This document shows positions 19,721 to 37,792 of a stretch of 64,000 bases of DNA, piece after piece; position 1 is the first letter of the stretch, and the number at the start of each line of letters is the position of its first letter. Made by a program: the position numbers and the translations under genes. The notes under the pieces are model-generated. The model saw nothing but the letters and a program-made list of their open reading frames with translations, was not told where the DNA came from and did not search any database. The stretch lies in IMG/VR virus record IMGVR_UViG_3300032240_003128; one strand, written 5' to 3'. The stretch is from a virus.

Positions 19721-21121
19721 ATGAATCTTGTAGAAAGACTCAAAAAACATTTCGATGTCGAAAGTAATGTCTTGATAACTGGCGCACATGGCGTTGGTAA
19801 AACATCTATTATCAAACAGGTATTTGAAGACAATGGCTTGGTTCTTAATGAATCATGGCTTTATTTCTCAGGATCTACTCTTGATCCTTGGGTTGACTTT
19901 ATCGGTATTCCAAAAGAAATAGAATACAACGGCAAGAAATGCATTGAAATAATACCACCAAAAGCATTTATAGACGAAGGTAAGATTCAAGCTATTTTCA
20001 TCGATGAGTTCAATCGTTCACCTAGCAAGATCAGGAATGCTCTTTTAGAACTTTGCCAATTCAAATCCATCAATGGTCGAAAATTTCCTAACTTGAAAGT
20101 TGTTTGGGCTGCGATCAATCCAGAAGATGAAGAAAATACTTATGATGTAGAAAGGCTCGATCCTGCTCAAAAAGATCGATTTCCCGGTAATCAAATATTT
20201 GTTCCATATGCTTGTGATACAGATTATTTTATCAAAAAATACGGTAACGACATAGCAACAACTAGTATTAATTGGTGGAACGATTTACCCGAAAACATCA
20301 AAAAACAAGTTTCACCTAGAAGACTTGATTATGCCCTCGAATATATGGCTAAAGGTATACCTTTAGAAGACATTCTGCCAAAAGATAGCAATCCGTCTAA
20401 ATTAAGACAAGATCTTAGTAATGGTCCCATTGATAAGAAACTGTCCAAATTGTATGAAACAAAAAATGTAAAAGAAGCAAAATTATTTTTAAATGTAGAA
20501 AACAACTATGTATCTGCCATAAAGATAATCAACATCAACGAAGGTTATAAAGAGTTTTTCGTTCCTTTGTTGAAGAAAGAAAAATTATGTTTATTGATTG
20601 CTGATGAAAAGATGTCTATTTCAGATTATATCTTAGCAAACAAGAACAAACATACTGAATTTAAATCAGCAGTAGAAGACATATTGACTGCTAGTACAAA
20701 TCCAAAAGCATTGATGAAAATAAGATCCTATTATGCTTCTAATGGCATAGAAGAATCAAGTAAAACCAAAGATATAAACAATGGCGTTGTCGAATCGTTG
20801 TCAAATAATGATTACATAGATCAATTTGACAAATGTAGCAAGAAAGATAAAATTAAAATTGTTATGCAAAATTTTCCAGATGATCCAAATGTTGATGTTT
20901 GCGAAAAAACAATGATATTTATTGTAGATTTTGTGGCTGAGAAATGGGAGACAACTATAAAACAATATGATTTAGATCTGTTGGTAGATATATGGAATAG
21001 ATCTTATGTAAAAGTAGACAAAATGTTTGCTGTTAAAATTAGTCAGACCCTAAATTTTAAGAAGAAATGCGAAAATTTAGGAATCATTAACATGATGAAA
21101 GGAATTCAAAATGGATATTAA
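19721..21121 (+). CDS. MoxR-like AAA+ ATPase
   Basis: GAHGVGKT, IFIDEFNR, AAINP, LDPAQKDRF, SPRR. Confidence 0.9.
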   Translation: MNLVERLKKHFDVESNVLITGAHGVGKTSIIKQVFEDNGLVLNESWLYFSGSTLDPWVDFIGIPKEIEYNGKKCIEIIPPKAFIDEGKIQAIFIDEFNRSPSKIRNALLELCQFKSINGRKFPNLKVVWAAINPEDEENTYDVERLDPAQKDRFPGNQIFVPYACDTDYFIKKYGNDIATTSINWWNDLPENIKKQVSPRRLDYALEYMAKGIPLEDILPKDSNPSKLRQDLSNGPIDKKLSKLYETKNVKEAKLFLNVENNYVSAIKIININEGYKEFFVPLLKKEKLCLLIADEKMSISDYILANKNKHTEFKSAVEDILTASTNPKALMKIRSYYASNGIEESSKTKDINNGVVESLSNNDYIDQFDKCSKKDKIKIVMQNFPDDPNVDVCEKTMIFIVDFVAEKWETTIKQYDLDLLVDIWNRSYVKVDKMFAVKISQTLNFKKKCENLGIINMMKGIQNGY

Positions 21122-22364
21122 TTCAGATTGGGAAAGACTTAAAAACAAGCTTGCTTGCCATCATAGTCTTTTCTACAAGATTGTCGAAATGGGTAAACCC
21201 TTTTTCACTGATAGGATTCCTACAGCAGCGGTTCAGTTTGACAAAGAAGGAAAATTTATTAGTTTTCTTTTTAATGAAAAGTTTTGGCAAGAGTGCGACG
21301 ATTACAAGAAAATGTTTGTAATTTGTCATGAATCTTTACATATAGTTTTACAACATGGAACAAGATTCTTAGAAAGTTTTAAGAATAAAATAGCAAATAT
21401 TGCTATGGATATAGTTGTCAATCATGCTCTTGTTAGAGATTTCGGTTTTATTAGGTCAGAACTTGATCCAAATTCAGATTATTGTTGGGTTGATACTGTT
21501 TTTAAAGACAAAAAATACTTAGGATTTCCTTATCCTGACGATGAATCAACAGAATTTTACTACAATGAAATTGAAAAAACCATGGAAGAAAACTCCGATG
21601 GTGATTGGCAGATGAGCTTAAACGGTGGTGGTAACCTTGTAGATGATCATAGTGGTATGTCGAGTGAAGAATTGGAAGAAATTATTAAGAAATCAGTTGA
21701 TACTTTAGATGAAAAAGAAAAGAGCCAATTAAACGATGCTTTAAACAATATTAAAAAAGCTGGTAATCAAGCTGGTAACTGGATGAGTATTGGAAAAATC
21801 CAAGAAGTAAAAAAACGTAAATGGGAAACAATTATCAAAAAATGGCAAATAAAATCTTTAAAACTAGAAGAAGCTGAAAAGGAACAATGGATTAGAAAAT
21901 CAAGAAGAATGAATTCTTTTCATAATGGTTTGATATTGCCTTCTAATGCTGAAATTGAACATTTCCACATGACGAAGAATAAAGTAAATGTTTATTTCTT
22001 TTTAGATACATCTGGAAGCTGTATAAATCTAGCAAAAAGATTTTTTCTTGCTGCCAATAGCTTACCAAAGGAAAAATTTAATATAAGATTGTTTTGTTTT
22101 GACACAAGAGTAGAAGAAACAGATTTAAAATCTGGTAAAGTATATGGCGGTGGTGGGACTTACTTTGATATTATCGAAGAAAGAATCCAGCAAGAAAAGA
22201 AAGAAAATAAAAAATATCCAGCCGCAGTTTTTATCATTACTGATGGTGCTGGAAATAATGTTACACCTGAATTCCCTAATAGATGGCATTGGTTTTTATC
22301 TGAAGATAACAAAAGATATATTCCTAAACAATCTTTTGTTTATGATTTATCAGATTTTGAGTGA
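21111..22364 (+). CDS. Metallopeptidase-like (HExxH) + vWA protein, DUF2201-like
   Basis: CHESLHIV, NIAMDIVVN, MIDAS DTSGS, GGGGT.F, ITDG. Confidence 0.85.
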   Translation: MDINSDWERLKNKLACHHSLFYKIVEMGKPFFTDRIPTAAVQFDKEGKFISFLFNEKFWQECDDYKKMFVICHESLHIVLQHGTRFLESFKNKIANIAMDIVVNHALVRDFGFIRSELDPNSDYCWVDTVFKDKKYLGFPYPDDESTEFYYNEIEKTMEENSDGDWQMSLNGGGNLVDDHSGMSSEELEEIIKKSVDTLDEKEKSQLNDALNNIKKAGNQAGNWMSIGKIQEVKKRKWETIIKKWQIKSLKLEEAEKEQWIRKSRRMNSFHNGLILPSNAEIEHFHMTKNKVNVYFFLDTSGSCINLAKRFFLAANSLPKEKFNIRLFCFDTRVEETDLKSGKVYGGGGTYFDIIEERIQQEKKENKKYPAAVFIITDGAGNNVTPEFPNRWHWFLSEDNKRYIPKQSFVYDLSDFE

Positions 22365-35429: not shown

Positions 35430-36155
35430 CTATTGATAGATAGCCACAAGAGGTATAAACTTCTCATTATATATTTTTTTAATATCATCCACATTGTAAT
35501 CTTTATATTTTTCGTGTTCTGTCAAACTAGCAATTTCTTTTTGTATCTCTTCCGGCAATCTCTGCACCCATTCGCTACAAAAACACCACAAAGGATCAAT
35601 TTGTTTTGCTCTTATCTGAAGCAAAATTCTTTTTATATTTTTATAAAAATTTTCATATGTGAAATTTTCATTTAATGTATCTTTTAAAGAAATAATTGTT
35701 TTTTCTAAAGCAGATATTATCATTTTATCATCGAGTTTTCTTGTGATTGTTTTGGTAATCATTTTAGTTTCTTCCATCTTTTTACGCCAAACATGATATC
35801 TTTTTTCTGCTTTTTCTCCTATTAGCAAACTTGGACTTATAATTGGATCTCTAGTCTCAAGCAATTTTATTATTTCTAATTGTGCTTTGATAAATATGAA
35901 AAATTCTGCTGGTTTTGTAAATACGCTTCTCTTGTCTCTGACATATTTTAAAACATATTTATAAGCAGATTGATTTATTGCTGGTTTTAAATCATTAAAT
36001 CTAGTGTGATTATAAACTGGAAAATAATGATATTCACAATTCAAATAATATATCAAAAGGTAATAGGCAAATATCATGTTTTCATCGCCTAAAAATCTTT
36101 CAAGCTGATCGGTTGAAACTTTGTAAACTTCACGCATAAATTCCGCCTTGGACAA
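35430..36155 (-). CDS. Hypothetical helical protein, weak resemblance to the gp59 helicase loader
   Basis: LLIGEKAEKRYHVWRKK pattern, size and location next to the replication genes; ORF itself is solid, function is a guess. Confidence 0.4.
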   Translation of the reverse strand: MSKAEFMREVYKVSTDQLERFLGDENMIFAYYLLIYYLNCEYHYFPVYNHTRFNDLKPAINQSAYKYVLKYVRDKRSVFTKPAEFFIFIKAQLEIIKLLETRDPIISPSLLIGEKAEKRYHVWRKKMEETKMITKTITRKLDDKMIISALEKTIISLKDTLNENFTYENFYKNIKRILLQIRAKQIDPLWCFCSEWVQRLPEEIQKEIASLTEHEKYKDYNVDDIKKIYNEKFIPLVAIYQ

Positions 36156-36197: not shown

Positions 36198-36452
36198 AAG
36201 TCAAAATTTTTATTTTTTTTGGCATGATTTTTGCGAATTAATAAATACTAAGTATTTATGTTTATTTGTATTTAAGAAAAACATATTTTTGTTAAGTGGT
36301 ACTAAGTTACTCTGAGCGAAGCGAAGAGTAAGTTAGTACCACTTAAACTAAAGCATCCCTAAGTACGAAGTACTTAGGGATGTATTAATACTAAATACAT
36401 AAATACTTAATTCGCAAAAATCGTGCCAAAAATCGGCAAAATTTTTTTGACT
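36198..36452. repeat. Nested inverted repeat (candidate replication origin or cruciform)
   Basis: Arms 36216-36240/36408-36432 (24 of 25 match) and 36249-36261/36397-36409; inner hairpins 36292-36346 and 36354-36382. Confidence 0.9.
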
Positions 36453-36481
36453 TTGAAAAGAAATATGCATACATTTTTAGC

Positions 36482-37792
36482 GTGAGCATAAACGAAACTA
36501 TTTTCGAGCAAATCCACGACACATTTCGTGTCGAAAGTGTTATTTATCTAGAAATATTAAGCAATCCAGACCTTTCAGACAAAAAAAATCTTTTATTACA
36601 CATAAGACTTTTAGGACCAAAAGGTTCTAAATTTGAAATTAAATTACATCAAAACAACACATGTTCGTTTGTACACCATATAAGAAATTGTTTATTGCAA
36701 TTTAATCGACCAATAATTTGCTTGAATTCTAAGCTTTTTCAATCTTTCTGTTTAAAACAAGGCTGTAGAAATTTAATTGATTTTAAATTTATTTTTGATT
36801 TAAATTGGTTTGTTGATTATACAGACACCAGTTGTTCTTTTGATAGATTAAGCGATATATTTTCAACTTTTGTTAAATTTATTAAATCAGAAAATTATGA
36901 AATTTATACTAAAGTTTTTCAAAAATTAATTTGTTGTACTGTTCCATATATGGAAAATCAAGGAATCATTCTTGATGATGAAGCTACATTTGTATATCCT
37001 TATTATTCATCCAGTTTTCAAGAAAATGGTAGACTTAATTCAAAGTTAATTTCAAATAGAAACTTTAATCCACATACTTTGTCACATGAATCAAAATTAA
37101 ATTTTACACTACCAGATGATGAGATTTTTGTATCTTTTGACTTCAAAGCATTAGAGTTATATGTTCTTGCATATCTTAGCAATGATCCAAATTTAAATAC
37201 GATGTTATATAACACATGTCATCCGTATGAACAAATAGCGCAATATACTGTAAATTTAGATAGCTTTAAAGATCAAAATTACAAAGATTTGGGTAAGAAG
37301 TTATTTTTGCCAGCAATTTATGGAATATCCGCAAACAAACTAGCAGAATCATTAGGTTGTTCATTTTTGGAAGCTCAGAATGCATTAAGTAAAACAAAAG
37401 CTTTATTTTCAAAAGCTTTTGATTATGTTGTAGGTCAGATGGCTCAAGCAGAAAACTTTGGTTATTGTTTTGATTACTTTAAAAGAAAAAAGAGTTTTTC
37501 TGCAAATGATTCATATAAAGCAATGAATTTCTCTGTACATTCACCAGCTGCTGTCTTTTGTTTTATTAAGATGAATGAAATTCATTCATTTATTAATCAA
37601 AATTTCCGCCTATTGTTTTCAGTCCATGACTGTTTTGTTTTTGCTGTTAAAAAGGCTGAATTAAATTCAACAATAAAAAATATAAAAAATATTTTACAAT
37701 CAGAATTTGAAGATTACAAACCGCTCAAATTTATTGTTGATATTAAATTTGGTGAAAATTTAGGATTTTTGAAAAATTATTCTGAAATTTGA
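36482..37792 (+). CDS. Divergent, short family-A DNA polymerase
   Basis: GRLNS, motif A SFDFKALELYVLAYLSND, motif B KDLGKKLFLPAIYG, motif C VHDC. Confidence 0.85.
   Translation: MSINETIFEQIHDTFRVESVIYLEILSNPDLSDKKNLLLHIRLLGPKGSKFEIKLHQNNTCSFVHHIRNCLLQFNRPIICLNSKLFQSFCLKQGCRNLIDFKFIFDLNWFVDYTDTSCSFDRLSDIFSTFVKFIKSENYEIYTKVFQKLICCTVPYMENQGIILDDEATFVYPYYSSSFQENGRLNSKLISNRNFNPHTLSHESKLNFTLPDDEIFVSFDFKALELYVLAYLSNDPNLNTMLYNTCHPYEQIAQYTVNLDSFKDQNYKDLGKKLFLPAIYGISANKLAESLGCSFLEAQNALSKTKALFSKAFDYVVGQMAQAENFGYCFDYFKRKKSFSANDSYKAMNFSVHSPAAVFCFIKMNEIHSFINQNFRLLFSVHDCFVFAVKKAELNSTIKNIKNILQSEFEDYKPLKFIVDIKFGENLGFLKNYSEI

What the first reader, a model, noticed from the sequence alone, without database searches (positions are those of the whole stretch)
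36198..36452. A 255-bp nested palindrome with two C-GAA-G DNA mini-hairpins between divergent replication genes
Seen: in the largest non-coding gap, outer arms (25 bp with one mismatch, plus 13 bp) enclose hairpin 1 (22-bp stem with one G.G mismatch, capped by GA-GC-GAA-GC-GA) and hairpin 2 (perfect 13-bp stem, GAA loop). 36241-36259 is itself a palindrome that competes with the 13-bp arm, so two alternative folds exist. The outermost repeat supplies outward-facing TTGACT -35 boxes. Established: d(GCGAAGC) and C-GNA-G triloops, and tandem sheared G.A pairs, are unusually stable in single-stranded DNA, and GNA-triloop hairpins form the N4 virion RNA polymerase promoters. Inference: a strand-specific branched ssDNA structure acting as replication origin, priming signal or loading site for the flanking gp59-like protein, the odd polymerase and the helicase.
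Basis: partly seen in the sequence, partly recalled or inferred. Interest (0 to 1): 0.8.

Follow-up and report, generated by a model that had tools for sequence, protein, structure and literature searches.

The report
Twin hairpins between facing sigma-54 boxes
A single-copy non-coding element, conserved in the replication-gene cluster of an uncultured freshwater jumbo phage, holds two hairpins kept by compensatory mutations and bracketed by two inward-pointing sigma-54-type promoter boxes; it is most likely a transcription-opened start site for DNA copying, or else a new promoter/antisense switch.

Summary
The palindrome is real: the DNA fold is -73 kcal/mol, z = -15 against shuffles. It recurs at the same locus in at least 10 distinct metagenomic relatives, so it is not an assembly artefact.

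Comparison splits it into two kinds of parts.
- **Inner hairpins.** Both are selected for base pairing. Hairpin 2 has 13/13 pairs always paired, 8 of them with double compensatory changes. Hairpin 1 has 4 compensatory pairs plus a paired indel. The caps GAGCGAAGCGA and GAA are invariant, both on the + strand.
- **Outer arms.** These do not covary. Each keeps an invariant TTGGCAYG-N4-TTGC, the sigma-54 -24/-12 consensus, pointing inward, with a freely varying spacer. This motif occurs exactly twice, only here, in relative contigs of 52-111 kb.

A conserved sigma-70-type promoter (TTGACT-N17-TACATT) faces outward to the PolA-like/DnaB operon.

Not supported: N4-type hairpin promoters (single locus, long stems). 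The gp59-like label of the left gene is inconclusive.

Best reading (about 0.35): a T4 oriF/oriG-like, transcription-opened origin whose displaced + strand folds into SSB-resistant mini-hairpins. Close rival (about 0.30): sigma-54-driven overlapping leaders or antisense RNAs.

Function is untested. Earlier notes of this scan report comparable single-copy mini-hairpin elements in other jumbo and T4-like phages.

The parts
36198..36203 (-). Left TTGACT hexamer, with an A/T tract at 36204-36218 between it and the left box.
   Evidence: No good -10 follows it. It sits at this position only in the window and L127. In other relatives a TTGACTT lies 80-190 nt further left, inside an extra module.
36219..36234 (+). 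Left sigma-54-type box TTGGCATGATTTTTGC (-24 GG, -12 GC), pointing right. Predicted start about 36245-36247.
   Evidence: TTGGCA.G....TTGC is invariant in 11 of 11 aligned sequences. Only the last base of TGGCAC (C/T), the 'r' position (A/G) and the three N positions vary.
36235..36291 (.). AT-rich spacer, about 86% A+T by direct count, of variable length in relatives (about 45-90 nt). It includes the small palindrome 36241-36259 at the predicted start site.
   Evidence: The first ~25 nt and the last ~15 nt are conserved; the middle varies in length and stays AT-rich.
36292..36346 (+). Hairpin 1: 22-bp stem and cap GAGCGAAGCGA, which contains an exact GCGAAGC mini-hairpin at 36316-36322.
   Evidence: I2. 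97% of cells are paired across relatives, and 4 pairs show double compensatory changes, plus a paired insertion in L131. The cap is invariant.
36347..36353 (.). Conserved linker ACTAAAG. Read on the - strand it is the U-rich tail after hairpin 2.
36354..36382 (+). Hairpin 2: 13-bp stem with a C-GAA-G triloop. On the - strand it scores as terminator-like.
   Evidence: All 13 pairs are paired in all 11 sequences, 8 of them with changes on both sides. Terminator-like call on the - strand with tail CTTTAGTTTA.
36383..36413 (.). AT-rich right spacer. In some relatives it carries a third + strand mini-hairpin, GCGAAGC or GCGTAGC, that overlaps the right -12 element.
36414..36429 (-). Right sigma-54-type box TTGGCACGATTTTTGC, read on the - strand and pointing left. 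Predicted start about 36402.
   Evidence: GCAAAAA..GTGCCAA is invariant in all relatives, and its two variable bases change independently of the left box.
36447..36475 (+). Conserved sigma-70-type promoter TTGACT-N17-TACATT behind an A/T-rich UP-like tract (36430-36446). The -10 ends 6 nt before the GTG at 36482 of the PolA-like gene.
   Evidence: TTGACTT and TA..TTTTT are invariant across relatives.

Best explanation
The element is a composite cis-acting site. Its selected parts are:
1. Two hairpins whose very stable GAA-type caps lie on the + strand.
2. Two inward-facing sigma-54-type -24/-12 boxes.
3. An AT-rich, length-variable stretch just downstream of the left box.
4. An outward sigma-70-type promoter for the PolA-like/DnaB operon.

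Proposed mechanism (inferred, not shown):
- It works like the promoter-plus-unwinding-element origins of T4 (oriF/oriG).
- Host RNA polymerase with sigma-54 sits on the boxes.
- Once activated, transcription from the left box runs through the AT-rich stretch and leaves an RNA-DNA hybrid.
- The displaced non-template + strand folds into hairpins 1 and 2.
- Their GCGAAGC / C-GAA-G caps resist melting and SSB coating, which keeps the bubble open and marks the place where the phage helicase, its loader and primase assemble.
- The RNA 3' end primes rightward synthesis.

Shown: anatomy, conservation, covariation and motif identity. Inferred: sigma-54 use, R-loop formation and origin activity. The role of the second (right) box is not explained by this model.
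For: **Structure**
- Fold z-scores are -15.4 and -13.5.
- Hairpin 2 is 100% paired, with 8 of 13 pairs compensatory. Hairpin 1 is 97% paired, with 4 compensatory pairs. All 500 column shuffles fall below the observed covariation score, and slid registers drop from 83% to 35-45% paired.
- RNAalifold recovers both hairpins independently.

**Strand bias**
- Both invariant caps are GAA-type on the + strand.
- L002, L003 and L005 add a third + strand GCGAAGC or GCGTAGC.
- Non-Watson-Crick cells in the hairpins include 11 G.T and 0 A.C on the + strand.
- d(GCGAAGC) has a Tm of 76.5 C, its relatives bind SSB poorly, and TTC-loop hairpins behave as ordinary ones (PMC13037366).

**Boxes**
- TGGCAY-N5-TTGC occurs twice in the window, against 0.46 expected per 64 kb.
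- It occurs exactly once forward and once reverse in each of three relative contigs of 52-111 kb, with 0 hits for the reversed control.
- The invariant columns are the consensus columns. The spacers vary independently in the two arms.
- Consensus TGGCAC-N5-TTGCT is taken from PMC12316311.

**Context**
- The box is followed by a stretch of about 86% A+T.
- The site lies at a transcription divergence.
- The window encodes gp32-like, UvsX-like, UvsW-type helicase, gp46/47-like and DnaB-like proteins.
- T4 oriF/oriG are a promoter plus an AT-rich DUE. The R-loop gives the primosome access to the non-template strand, and active T4 origins sit at transcription divergences (PMC3016281).

**Copy number and distribution**
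- The element is single-copy and restricted to this clade.
Against: - No experiment or read data was available, and the host is unknown, so the presence of rpoN is unknown.
- No enhancer-binding protein or sigma-54 gene was found in the window or on five relative contigs. The AAA protein at 19721-21121 lacks GAFTGA.
- The boxes face each other, which is not the usual layout, and no upstream activator site is evident.
- A single exact match to the box pattern in 64 kb is not rare by chance (0.46 expected). The argument therefore rests on the conservation pattern.
- The model leaves the right box without a role.
- Hairpin 2 on the - strand looks like a terminator, which suits an RNA reading.
- GC skew follows gene orientation and shows no usable inflection.
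- There is no DnaA-box cluster or iteron array.
Confidence: 0.35

Rival explanations
1. Gene-expression control only. The two boxes are genuine sigma-54 promoters that fire toward each other. Each gives an alternative, activator-dependent transcript for the operon on the far side, and their structured 5' leaders overlap by about 156 nt. Alternatively the right box makes a short RNA of about 55-60 nt, ended by hairpin 2 on the - strand, that acts as an antisense regulator of the left-box transcript in the manner of ColE1 RNA I/RNA II. On this reading the hairpins act in RNA, as processing, stability or kissing elements.
For: - The box evidence is the same as for the best explanation.
- Hairpin 2 on the - strand, with its conserved CTTTAGTTTA tail, scores as an intrinsic terminator.
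- Both predicted RNAs fold strongly, z = -10.0 and -8.6.
- A covarying stem suits a terminator or a 22-bp RNase III-type substrate.
- The predicted left-box transcript meets no conserved terminator and so would run on into the PolA-like/DnaB operon.
Against: - No Rfam family matches.
- Triloops closed by C-G and a GCGAAGC cap are the hallmark of DNA mini-hairpins rather than of stable RNA loops (PMC13037366).
- Both caps, and a third in some relatives, lie on one strand, which a symmetric sense/antisense pair does not require.
- Hairpin 1 has no U-tail on either strand.
- The single-stranded 5' part of the putative short RNA is poorly conserved.
- No enhancer-binding protein was identified.
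Confidence: 0.3
2. When the region is single-stranded (cruciform extrusion under supercoiling, or the lagging-strand template), the + strand folds into a three-way junction: outer arms paired, hairpins 1 and 2 as branches. A primase, helicase loader or initiator recognises this as a priming or loading signal, as at G4 oric or RSF1010 ssiA/ssiB. The boxes are conserved because a protein reads that stem.
For: - The outer boxes can pair in every relative: 9-17 of 17 box nucleotides pair in the DNA minimum-energy folds, and RNAalifold also pairs them.
- The one-sided changes in the boxes give G.T, not A.C, on the + strand.
- Mini-hairpins occur at G4 and RSF1010 priming sites (PMC13037366).
- The + strand bias of the caps fits.
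Against: - The boxes show no compensatory change. Their variable positions differ freely between the two arms, and outer arm A is only 71% paired overall.
- Pairing beyond the box is lost in half of the relatives.
- A stem read only as a helix would not need to match the sigma-54 consensus base for base.
- In RSF1010 the two signals lie on opposite strands; here all caps lie on one.
- No RepB'-like primase is known here.
Confidence: 0.15
3. Double-stranded operator sites. The palindromes and the inverted boxes are binding sites for dimeric phage or host proteins, such as a repressor or initiator, that control the divergent promoters. No unusual DNA or RNA structure is involved.
For: - The sequence of the hairpin 1 stem and of the boxes is nearly invariant.
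- The element lies between divergent promoters.
- The adjacent 236-aa protein, of unknown function, is specific to this phage lineage and its wider family.
Against: - The stem of hairpin 2 changes sequence at 8 of 13 positions while always keeping pairing. This is the signature of a folded strand, not of a sequence-specific duplex site.
- The arms, 22 bp and 13 bp, are long for operators.
- The invariant asymmetric caps and their common strand are left unexplained.
Confidence: 0.1
4. Fold-back assembly artefact or chance palindrome.
For: None found.
Against: - The same architecture appears in at least 10 distinct sequences from independent metagenomes and assemblies, with 66-81% protein identity in the neighbouring gene.
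- Fold z-score of -15.
Confidence: 0.01

Closest known systems
T4 oriF (uvsY) and oriG (34): promoter plus AT-rich downstream unwinding element, R-loop primed (PMC3016281)
   Same: - A promoter-type box is followed directly by an AT-rich stretch of variable sequence.
- The site lies where transcription diverges.
- The genome carries T4-type gp32, UvsX, UvsW-type helicase and gp46/47 homologues.
- In T4, the non-template strand is the proposed entry point for the primosome.
   Different: - The box is sigma-54-type, not a MotA/sigma-70 middle promoter.
- There are two boxes, and they face each other.
- Two conserved hairpins with mini-hairpin caps follow the AT-rich part, whereas T4 origins share no sequence motif.
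- Origin activity is not tested here.
Bacterial sigma-54 (RpoN) -24/-12 promoters, consensus TGGCAC-N5-TTGCW (PMC12316311)
   Same: - GG and GC are exactly 10 nt apart.
- The left box fits the extended form YTGGCACGr-N3-TTGC, which I recall from memory.
- Conservation is confined to the consensus positions.
   Different: - The two boxes are convergent.
- The transcribed region is non-coding for about 100-235 nt.
- No enhancer-binding protein gene or recognisable upstream activator site was found.
- The setting is a phage genome of unknown host.
- I know of no described sigma-54 promoter in a phage replication module. That is from my own knowledge; the one literature search I made listed none.
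Single-strand initiation signals with mini-hairpins: G4 oric, RSF1010 ssiA/ssiB (PMC13037366)
   Same: A GNA-type mini-hairpin (here an exact GCGAAGC, plus a C-GAA-G) caps a longer hairpin in a replication-related non-coding site.
   Different: - All caps lie on one strand, whereas ssiA and ssiB lie on opposite strands.
- The genome is a large dsDNA phage, not an ssDNA phage or an IncQ plasmid.
- No RepB'-type primase was identified.
N4 virion-RNA-polymerase hairpin promoters
   Same: A three-base G-purine-A loop closed by C-G on single-stranded DNA.
   Different: - N4 promoters have 5-bp stems (5-7 bp from my own knowledge) and occur at several early promoters. Here the stems are 13 and 22 bp, at one locus only.
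- The window holds no giant RNA polymerase gene; its longest ORF is 817 aa.
Single-strand promoters of M13/f1 ori(-) and F plasmid Frpo; HSV-1 oriL palindrome between the divergent UL29 and UL30 genes; ColE1 RNA I/RNA II (all from my own knowledge, not checked here)
   Same: - M13/f1 and Frpo: a folded single strand can rebuild a duplex promoter that makes a short primer.
- HSV-1 oriL: a long palindrome serves as origin between divergent replication genes.
- ColE1: convergent promoters give structured overlapping RNAs that control replication.
   Different: - M13/f1 and Frpo use sigma-70 elements.
- HSV-1 oriL is bound by UL9.
- ColE1 has no sigma-54 boxes.
- None of them combines mini-hairpin caps with -24/-12 boxes.

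Membership tests
sigma-54 (-24/-12) promoter | GG and GC dinucleotides exactly 10 nt apart within TGGCAC-N5-TTGC | tested here: met
   36220-36234 (+) TGGCATGATTTTTGC and 36414-36428 (-) TGGCACGATTTTTGC. Every box of all 11 aligned sequences keeps this spacing.
sigma-54 (-24/-12) promoter | Conservation falls on the consensus positions, while the spacer is free | tested here: met
   Left box: only the C/T of TGGCAC, the purine after G and the three N positions vary. Right box: only two spacer bases vary. The two arms vary independently.
sigma-54 (-24/-12) promoter | An enhancer-binding AAA+ activator (GAFTGA) and its binding sites | tested here: inconclusive
   PF00158 matches only the Walker A region of a MoxR-like AAA protein that has no GAFTGA. 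A host activator cannot be examined because the host is unknown. No convincing upstream activator site is visible.
sigma-54 (-24/-12) promoter | The host encodes RpoN, and transcripts start about 12 nt after the GC | not testable with these tools
   The host is unknown and no transcript data exist. No Sigma54_DBD gene is present on five phage contig fragments.
d(GCGNAGC) mini-hairpin | Heptamer GCGNAGC (two G-C pairs, a sheared G.A, one-base turn) | tested here: met
   Exact GCGAAGC at 36316-36322, invariant in all relatives. Hairpin 2 has only the C-GAA-G core (TACGAAGTA). Whether the fold forms in vivo is not testable here.
N4 virion RNA polymerase hairpin promoter | Several copies with short (5-7 bp) stems ahead of early genes, plus a giant virion RNA polymerase gene | tested here: not met
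   One locus only, with stems of 13 and 22 bp. The largest ORF in the window is 817 aa. The rest of the genome was not available.
RSF1010-type ssiA/ssiB pair | Two priming hairpins on opposite strands, read by a RepB'-type primase | tested here: not met
   All GNA caps lie on the + strand. A RepB'-type primase was not searched for specifically.
T4 oriF/oriG-type origin | A promoter followed by an AT-rich unwinding element; persistent R-loop; autonomous replication | tested here: inconclusive
   The anatomy fits: a box followed by about 57 nt of about 86% A+T, at a transcription divergence. R-loop formation and replication activity are not testable with these tools.
Rho-independent terminator | A GC-containing stem followed by a U-run | tested here: met
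   Hairpin 2 on the - strand: 13 pairs (6 G-C), tail CTTTAGTTTA. The tail is conserved. Hairpin 1 has no U-run on either strand.
T4 gp59 helicase loader (left flanking gene, 35430-36140, - strand) | Sequence or fold similarity to gp59 | tested here: inconclusive
   - No Pfam hit for the protein or for 50 family members, and no PDB sequence hit.
- The AlphaFold model has pLDDT 92.6.
- Foldseek against the PDB finds nothing at E <= 0.001. VIA-align gives at best Z = 5.3 (AAA lid-like helical domain), with the SPP1 G39P loader at Z = 4.2.
- BFVD gives weak hits named 'DNA helicase loader': E = 0.03, probability 0.98, TM 0.32-0.35.

The most novel reading that the evidence does not exclude
The two boxes are the two halves of one single-strand promoter.

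- When the + strand is exposed, as a displaced or lagging-strand template, left and right boxes pair and rebuild a single duplex sigma-54 -24/-12 site.
- In half of the relatives the pairing stops exactly at the -12 GC. To my knowledge this gives the fork-junction shape that sigma-54 binds best.
- RNA polymerase could then start without an enhancer protein at about 36402, copy about 20 nt of the + strand, and stall at the very stable hairpin 2. The product would be a replication primer.

This would be a sigma-54 counterpart of the M13 ori(-) and F Frpo single-strand promoters, built into a jumbo dsDNA phage.
Probability: 0.12. Interest if true: 0.9.

Novelty: new variant of a known kind. Interest (0 to 1): 0.6.

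Why it matters
Replication origins of jumbo and T4-like phages are largely unmapped and share no known motif. Here a conserved, compact (about 210-240 nt), single-copy element has sharply defined parts, which gives a directly testable candidate.

If the boxes bind sigma-54 polymerase, this would be the first case I know of in which a phage places the enhancer-dependent, tightly shut-off sigma-54 system inside its replication module. That would link the start of phage DNA synthesis, or replication-gene expression, to a host signalling state.

The element also gives a natural setting in which to test whether the extraordinarily stable d(GCGAAGC) fold has a biological role in a double-stranded genome.

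The covariation data already separate what is selected as structure (the inner hairpins) from what is selected as sequence (the boxes). That tells an experimenter which mutations to make.

Tried and rejected
- **Relatives by DNA similarity.** blastn of the locus against GenBank phages gave no match. Protein searches found only a 595-kb uncultured phage at 27-33% identity. It has the two flanking gene families but no intergenic element.
- **15-mer scan.** A scan with the hairpin 1 tip was too short and returned mostly chance or unrelated hits. A two-cap pattern then recovered only this phage group among viral contigs, and an unrelated bacterial repeat among genomes.
- **More distant loci.** Alignments A4 and A5 were too divergent for the search for related loci, and protein P0018 found nothing.
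- **Rfam.** No family matched the locus or the bacterial repeat.
- **Origin marks.** There is no DnaA-box excess and no iteron array; only short AT-rich words recur. GC skew tracks gene orientation and gives no clear inflection.
- **T4-late-promoter reading of the ATAAATAC words.** Rejected, because they are not conserved in relatives.
- **Phage-encoded sigma-54 or activator.** Not found.
Not supported: Shine-Dalgarno sites and TTGACA/TATAAT promoters are common in the window.
- **Structure model of the left protein.** A 50-sequence alignment fixed this.
- **ESM Atlas.** Nothing above chance.
- **Whole genome.** None is held for this window.
Full report
**What is there**

- Hairpin 1 has 22-nt arms (36292-36313 / 36325-36346) with one G.G mismatch. 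Its 11-nt cap GAGCGAAGCGA contains an exact GCGAAGC.
- Hairpin 2 has a perfect 13-bp stem (36354-36366 / 36370-36382) and a GAA loop.
- Both are enclosed by outer inverted repeats: 39 nt at 85% complementarity, including a 25-nt block with one difference, plus a perfect 13-nt pair.

As single-stranded DNA the region folds at -73.2 kcal/mol on the + strand and -67.8 on the - strand. Shuffles give about -21 +/- 3.4, so z = -15.4 and -13.5. No other hairpin with a stem of at least 9 bp in the 64-kb window has a GAA loop. The other strong hairpins look like ordinary terminators.

**Setting**

The window is part of a large myovirus-type phage. It encodes:
- a tail sheath, ribonucleotide reductase, gp46/47-like SbcCD, a UvsX-like recombinase and a UvsW-type helicase;
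- a gp32-like protein and dCMP deaminase;
- to the right of the element, an operon with a 436-aa family-A polymerase core, a 184-aa protein of unknown function and a DnaB-like helicase.

To the left lies a 236-aa protein on the opposite strand, whose true start is the ATG at 36138-36140. CheckV rates related contigs of 91-111 kb as only 16-23% complete, which suggests a jumbo genome. Shine-Dalgarno sites and TTGACA/TATAAT promoters are common, so the unknown host has a conventional sigma-70 and ribosome-binding system. No whole genome is held, and GenBank holds no close cultured relative.

**Relatives and artefact test**

Searching with the left protein and its alignment found the same intergenic element, at the same place, in IMG/VR and JGI/NCBI metagenome contigs. 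A scan for the two caps found one more such contig and nothing else among viral contigs. Eleven sequences, all distinct, were aligned as A3. The neighbouring protein is 66-81% identical in these relatives (100% in L127, which is near-identical to the window). A fold-back assembly artefact or a chance palindrome is therefore excluded.

**The inner hairpins are selected as structure**

I counted pairs on A3 for the structure read from the window.
- In hairpin 2, all 13 core pairs are paired in all 11 sequences, and 8 of the 13 have changes on both sides.
- Hairpin 1 is 97% paired, with 4 pairs changed on both sides. L131 additionally carries an inserted base pair.
- Overall 83% of cells are paired, against 35-45% when the partner is slid by 1-3 columns. 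None of 500 column shuffles reaches the observed covariation score.
- RNAalifold, run without my structure, recovers both hairpins.

The caps GAGCGAAGCGA and GAA, the linker ACTAAAG and the run AAAACATATTTTT before hairpin 1 are essentially invariant.

**The outer arms are selected as sequence**

Outer arm A is only 71% paired across relatives.
- Invariant on the + strand at the left: TTGGCA-Y-G-NNNN-TTGC.
- Invariant on the - strand at the right: the same word.
- In the left box, the only variable columns are the C/T ending TGGCAC, the next-but-one base (always A or G) and the three following bases.
- In the right box, only two spacer bases vary.
- The two arms vary independently, so L135 has four mismatches and L005 five or six, with no compensation.

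This word is the sigma-54 -24/-12 promoter consensus TGGCAC-N5-TTGCW (PMC12316311). The left box also fits the extended form YTGGCACGr-N3-TTGC, which I know from memory. Both copies point inward. Predicted starts are near 36246 (+) and 36402 (-), so the two transcripts would overlap by about 156 nt across both hairpins.

The exact pattern TGGCAY-N5-TTGC occurs twice in the window, against 0.46 expected per 64 kb. In each of three relative contigs of 52, 91 and 111 kb it occurs exactly once forward and once reverse, always in this element, and the reversed control pattern gives 0. One match in 64 kb would not be remarkable by itself. The case rests on its position in this element and on conservation that follows the consensus base for base.

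I found no enhancer-binding protein and no sigma-54 gene on the phage DNA at hand. The only PF00158 signal is the Walker A region of a MoxR-like AAA protein that lacks GAFTGA. If the boxes are used, they depend on host factors.

**Outward promoters**

To the right, an A/T-rich tract, TTGACT, 17 nt and TACATT are conserved; relatives have TTGACTT and TAGATT. The -10 ends 6 nt before the conserved GTG start of the polymerase gene, which suggests a leaderless message.

The left TTGACT abuts the arm only in the window and L127, and has no convincing -10. The other relatives carry an extra 65-140 nt there. This extra module has its own TTGACTT promoter-like site and a further covarying hairpin (GCCGTTTA...TAAACGGC). 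In some relatives a second TTGACTT-N17-TAGRRT lies 6 nt before the ATG of the left gene. So the mirror-image -35 boxes are a feature of this genome, not of the family.

**Strand and molecule**

Both invariant caps are GAA-type on the + strand. L002, L003 and L005 add a third + strand GCGAAGC or GCGTAGC that overlaps the right -12 element. In the hairpins, non-Watson-Crick cells include 11 G.T and no A.C on the + strand. These reflect only two or three independent events.

d(GCGAAGC) melts at 76.5 C and resists nucleases. Related mini-hairpins bind SSB poorly. Hairpins with TTC loops, which is what the - strand would form, behave like ordinary ones. Such motifs sit at the G4 primase site, in RSF1010 ssiA and in N4 promoters (PMC13037366). 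This favours a role for the + strand as single-stranded DNA.

The same strand as RNA cannot be excluded. Both predicted transcripts fold well, z = -10.0 and -8.6. Hairpin 2 on the - strand, with its conserved CTTTAGTTTA tail, scores as an intrinsic terminator. No Rfam family matches.

**Mechanism**

The best fit to all parts is a transcription-opened origin of the T4 oriF/oriG kind. Those origins consist of a promoter and an AT-rich downstream unwinding element. The transcript stays annealed as an R-loop, primes leading-strand synthesis, and leaves the non-template strand free for the primosome. The active T4 origins sit where transcription diverges (PMC3016281).

Here the left box is followed by about 57 nt of about 86% A+T, of variable length in relatives, and then by the two hairpins. 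The strand displaced by left-box transcription is the + strand, the one carrying all the stable caps. Folded caps would hinder re-annealing and SSB coating, and could mark the loading site for the DnaB-like helicase.

I give this 0.35. It does not explain the right box, and every functional step is inferred.

Rivals:
- **Purely regulatory (0.30):** sigma-54 alternative promoters with overlapping structured leaders, or a short terminated antisense RNA from the right box.
weakened by the lack of covariation in the arms.
- **Duplex operators (0.10):** contradicted by the covariation in hairpin 2.

A more novel possibility (0.12) is that the folded + strand pairs the two boxes into one duplex sigma-54 site. 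In half of the relatives this pairing ends exactly at the -12 GC, so it would act as a single-strand promoter making a roughly 20-nt primer that stops at hairpin 2.

**The neighbouring 'gp59-like' gene**

- The 236-aa protein has no Pfam, PHROG or PDB sequence match.
- A profile search found a wider family of 115 cluster representatives, mostly 210-250 aa, none with a meaningful Pfam domain.
- With a 50-sequence alignment the AlphaFold model reaches pLDDT 92.6 and is all-helical.
- Foldseek finds nothing in the PDB, and VIA-align gives only Z of about 5 or less.
- The viral predicted-structure library gives weak hits to proteins named DNA helicase loader (E = 0.03-1.6, TM about 0.3).

The label is a lead, not a finding.

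**Comparison and novelty**

The parts are individually known: sigma-54 boxes, GNA mini-hairpins and promoter-plus-DUE origins. I found no description of this combination: two facing -24/-12 boxes around covarying mini-hairpin-capped stems, in a phage replication module. I therefore rate it a new variant of a known kind.

Earlier notes of this scan are AI notes and not independent evidence. They report other single-copy mini-hairpin clusters at strand-switch points of jumbo and T4-like phages, also read as candidate origins. This element may belong to a wider, undescribed class.

Noticed in passing
Loci L010-L160, e.g. L056:7898 and 8384 (- strand), L156, L159, L153: A widespread repeat, GTCAYTCTGAGCGAAGCGAAGARTCTC, is often half of a larger inverted pair. 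It occurs in many unrelated viral contigs and in genomes of Chloroflexi, Syntrophaceae, Caldisericaceae, Opitutus and others. It shares 17-21 nt with the tip of hairpin 1, has no Rfam family, and I found no paper naming it.
   Followed up: partly
L128, L129, L134, L135, L002, L005, L131, L139: the 65-140 nt extra between the left box and the left gene: These relatives carry an extra module that the window and L127 lack. It holds a TTGACTT promoter-like site and a covarying hairpin (GCCGTTTA..TAAACGGC, changed to CCATTTA..TAAATGG in L131), followed by CATGTG. It could be a small RNA or a leader element.
   Followed up: partly
window 36515-36531: The palindrome CGACAC-N5-GTGTCG lies inside codons 12-17 of the polymerase gene, about 100 bp upstream of the right box. 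In L005 both halves change together (CAACAC..GTGTTG): one change is non-synonymous and the other synonymous.
   Followed up: partly
window 36470-36484; L002 3980-4021: The -10 hexamers end 6 nt before the start codons: GTG of the polymerase gene in all relatives, and ATG of the left gene in L002, L005 and L131. No Shine-Dalgarno site is present there. This suggests leaderless mRNAs, one of them starting with GUG.
   Followed up: no
window, upstream of 15499 (-), 15514 (+) and 48758 (+): The motif ACTCATACTATAWT recurs just upstream of several start codons. It may be a phage-specific promoter class.
   Followed up: no
window 35430-36140 (-): The 236-aa protein belongs to a family of at least 115 cluster representatives. 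It gives a confident all-helical AlphaFold model (pLDDT 92.6), but no clear match in the PDB and no Pfam domain.
   Followed up: yes
window 19721-22364: A MoxR-like AAA ATPase (466 aa) is followed by a 417-aa protein that PHROGs labels an HNH endonuclease. The pair is conserved on relative contigs.
   Followed up: no
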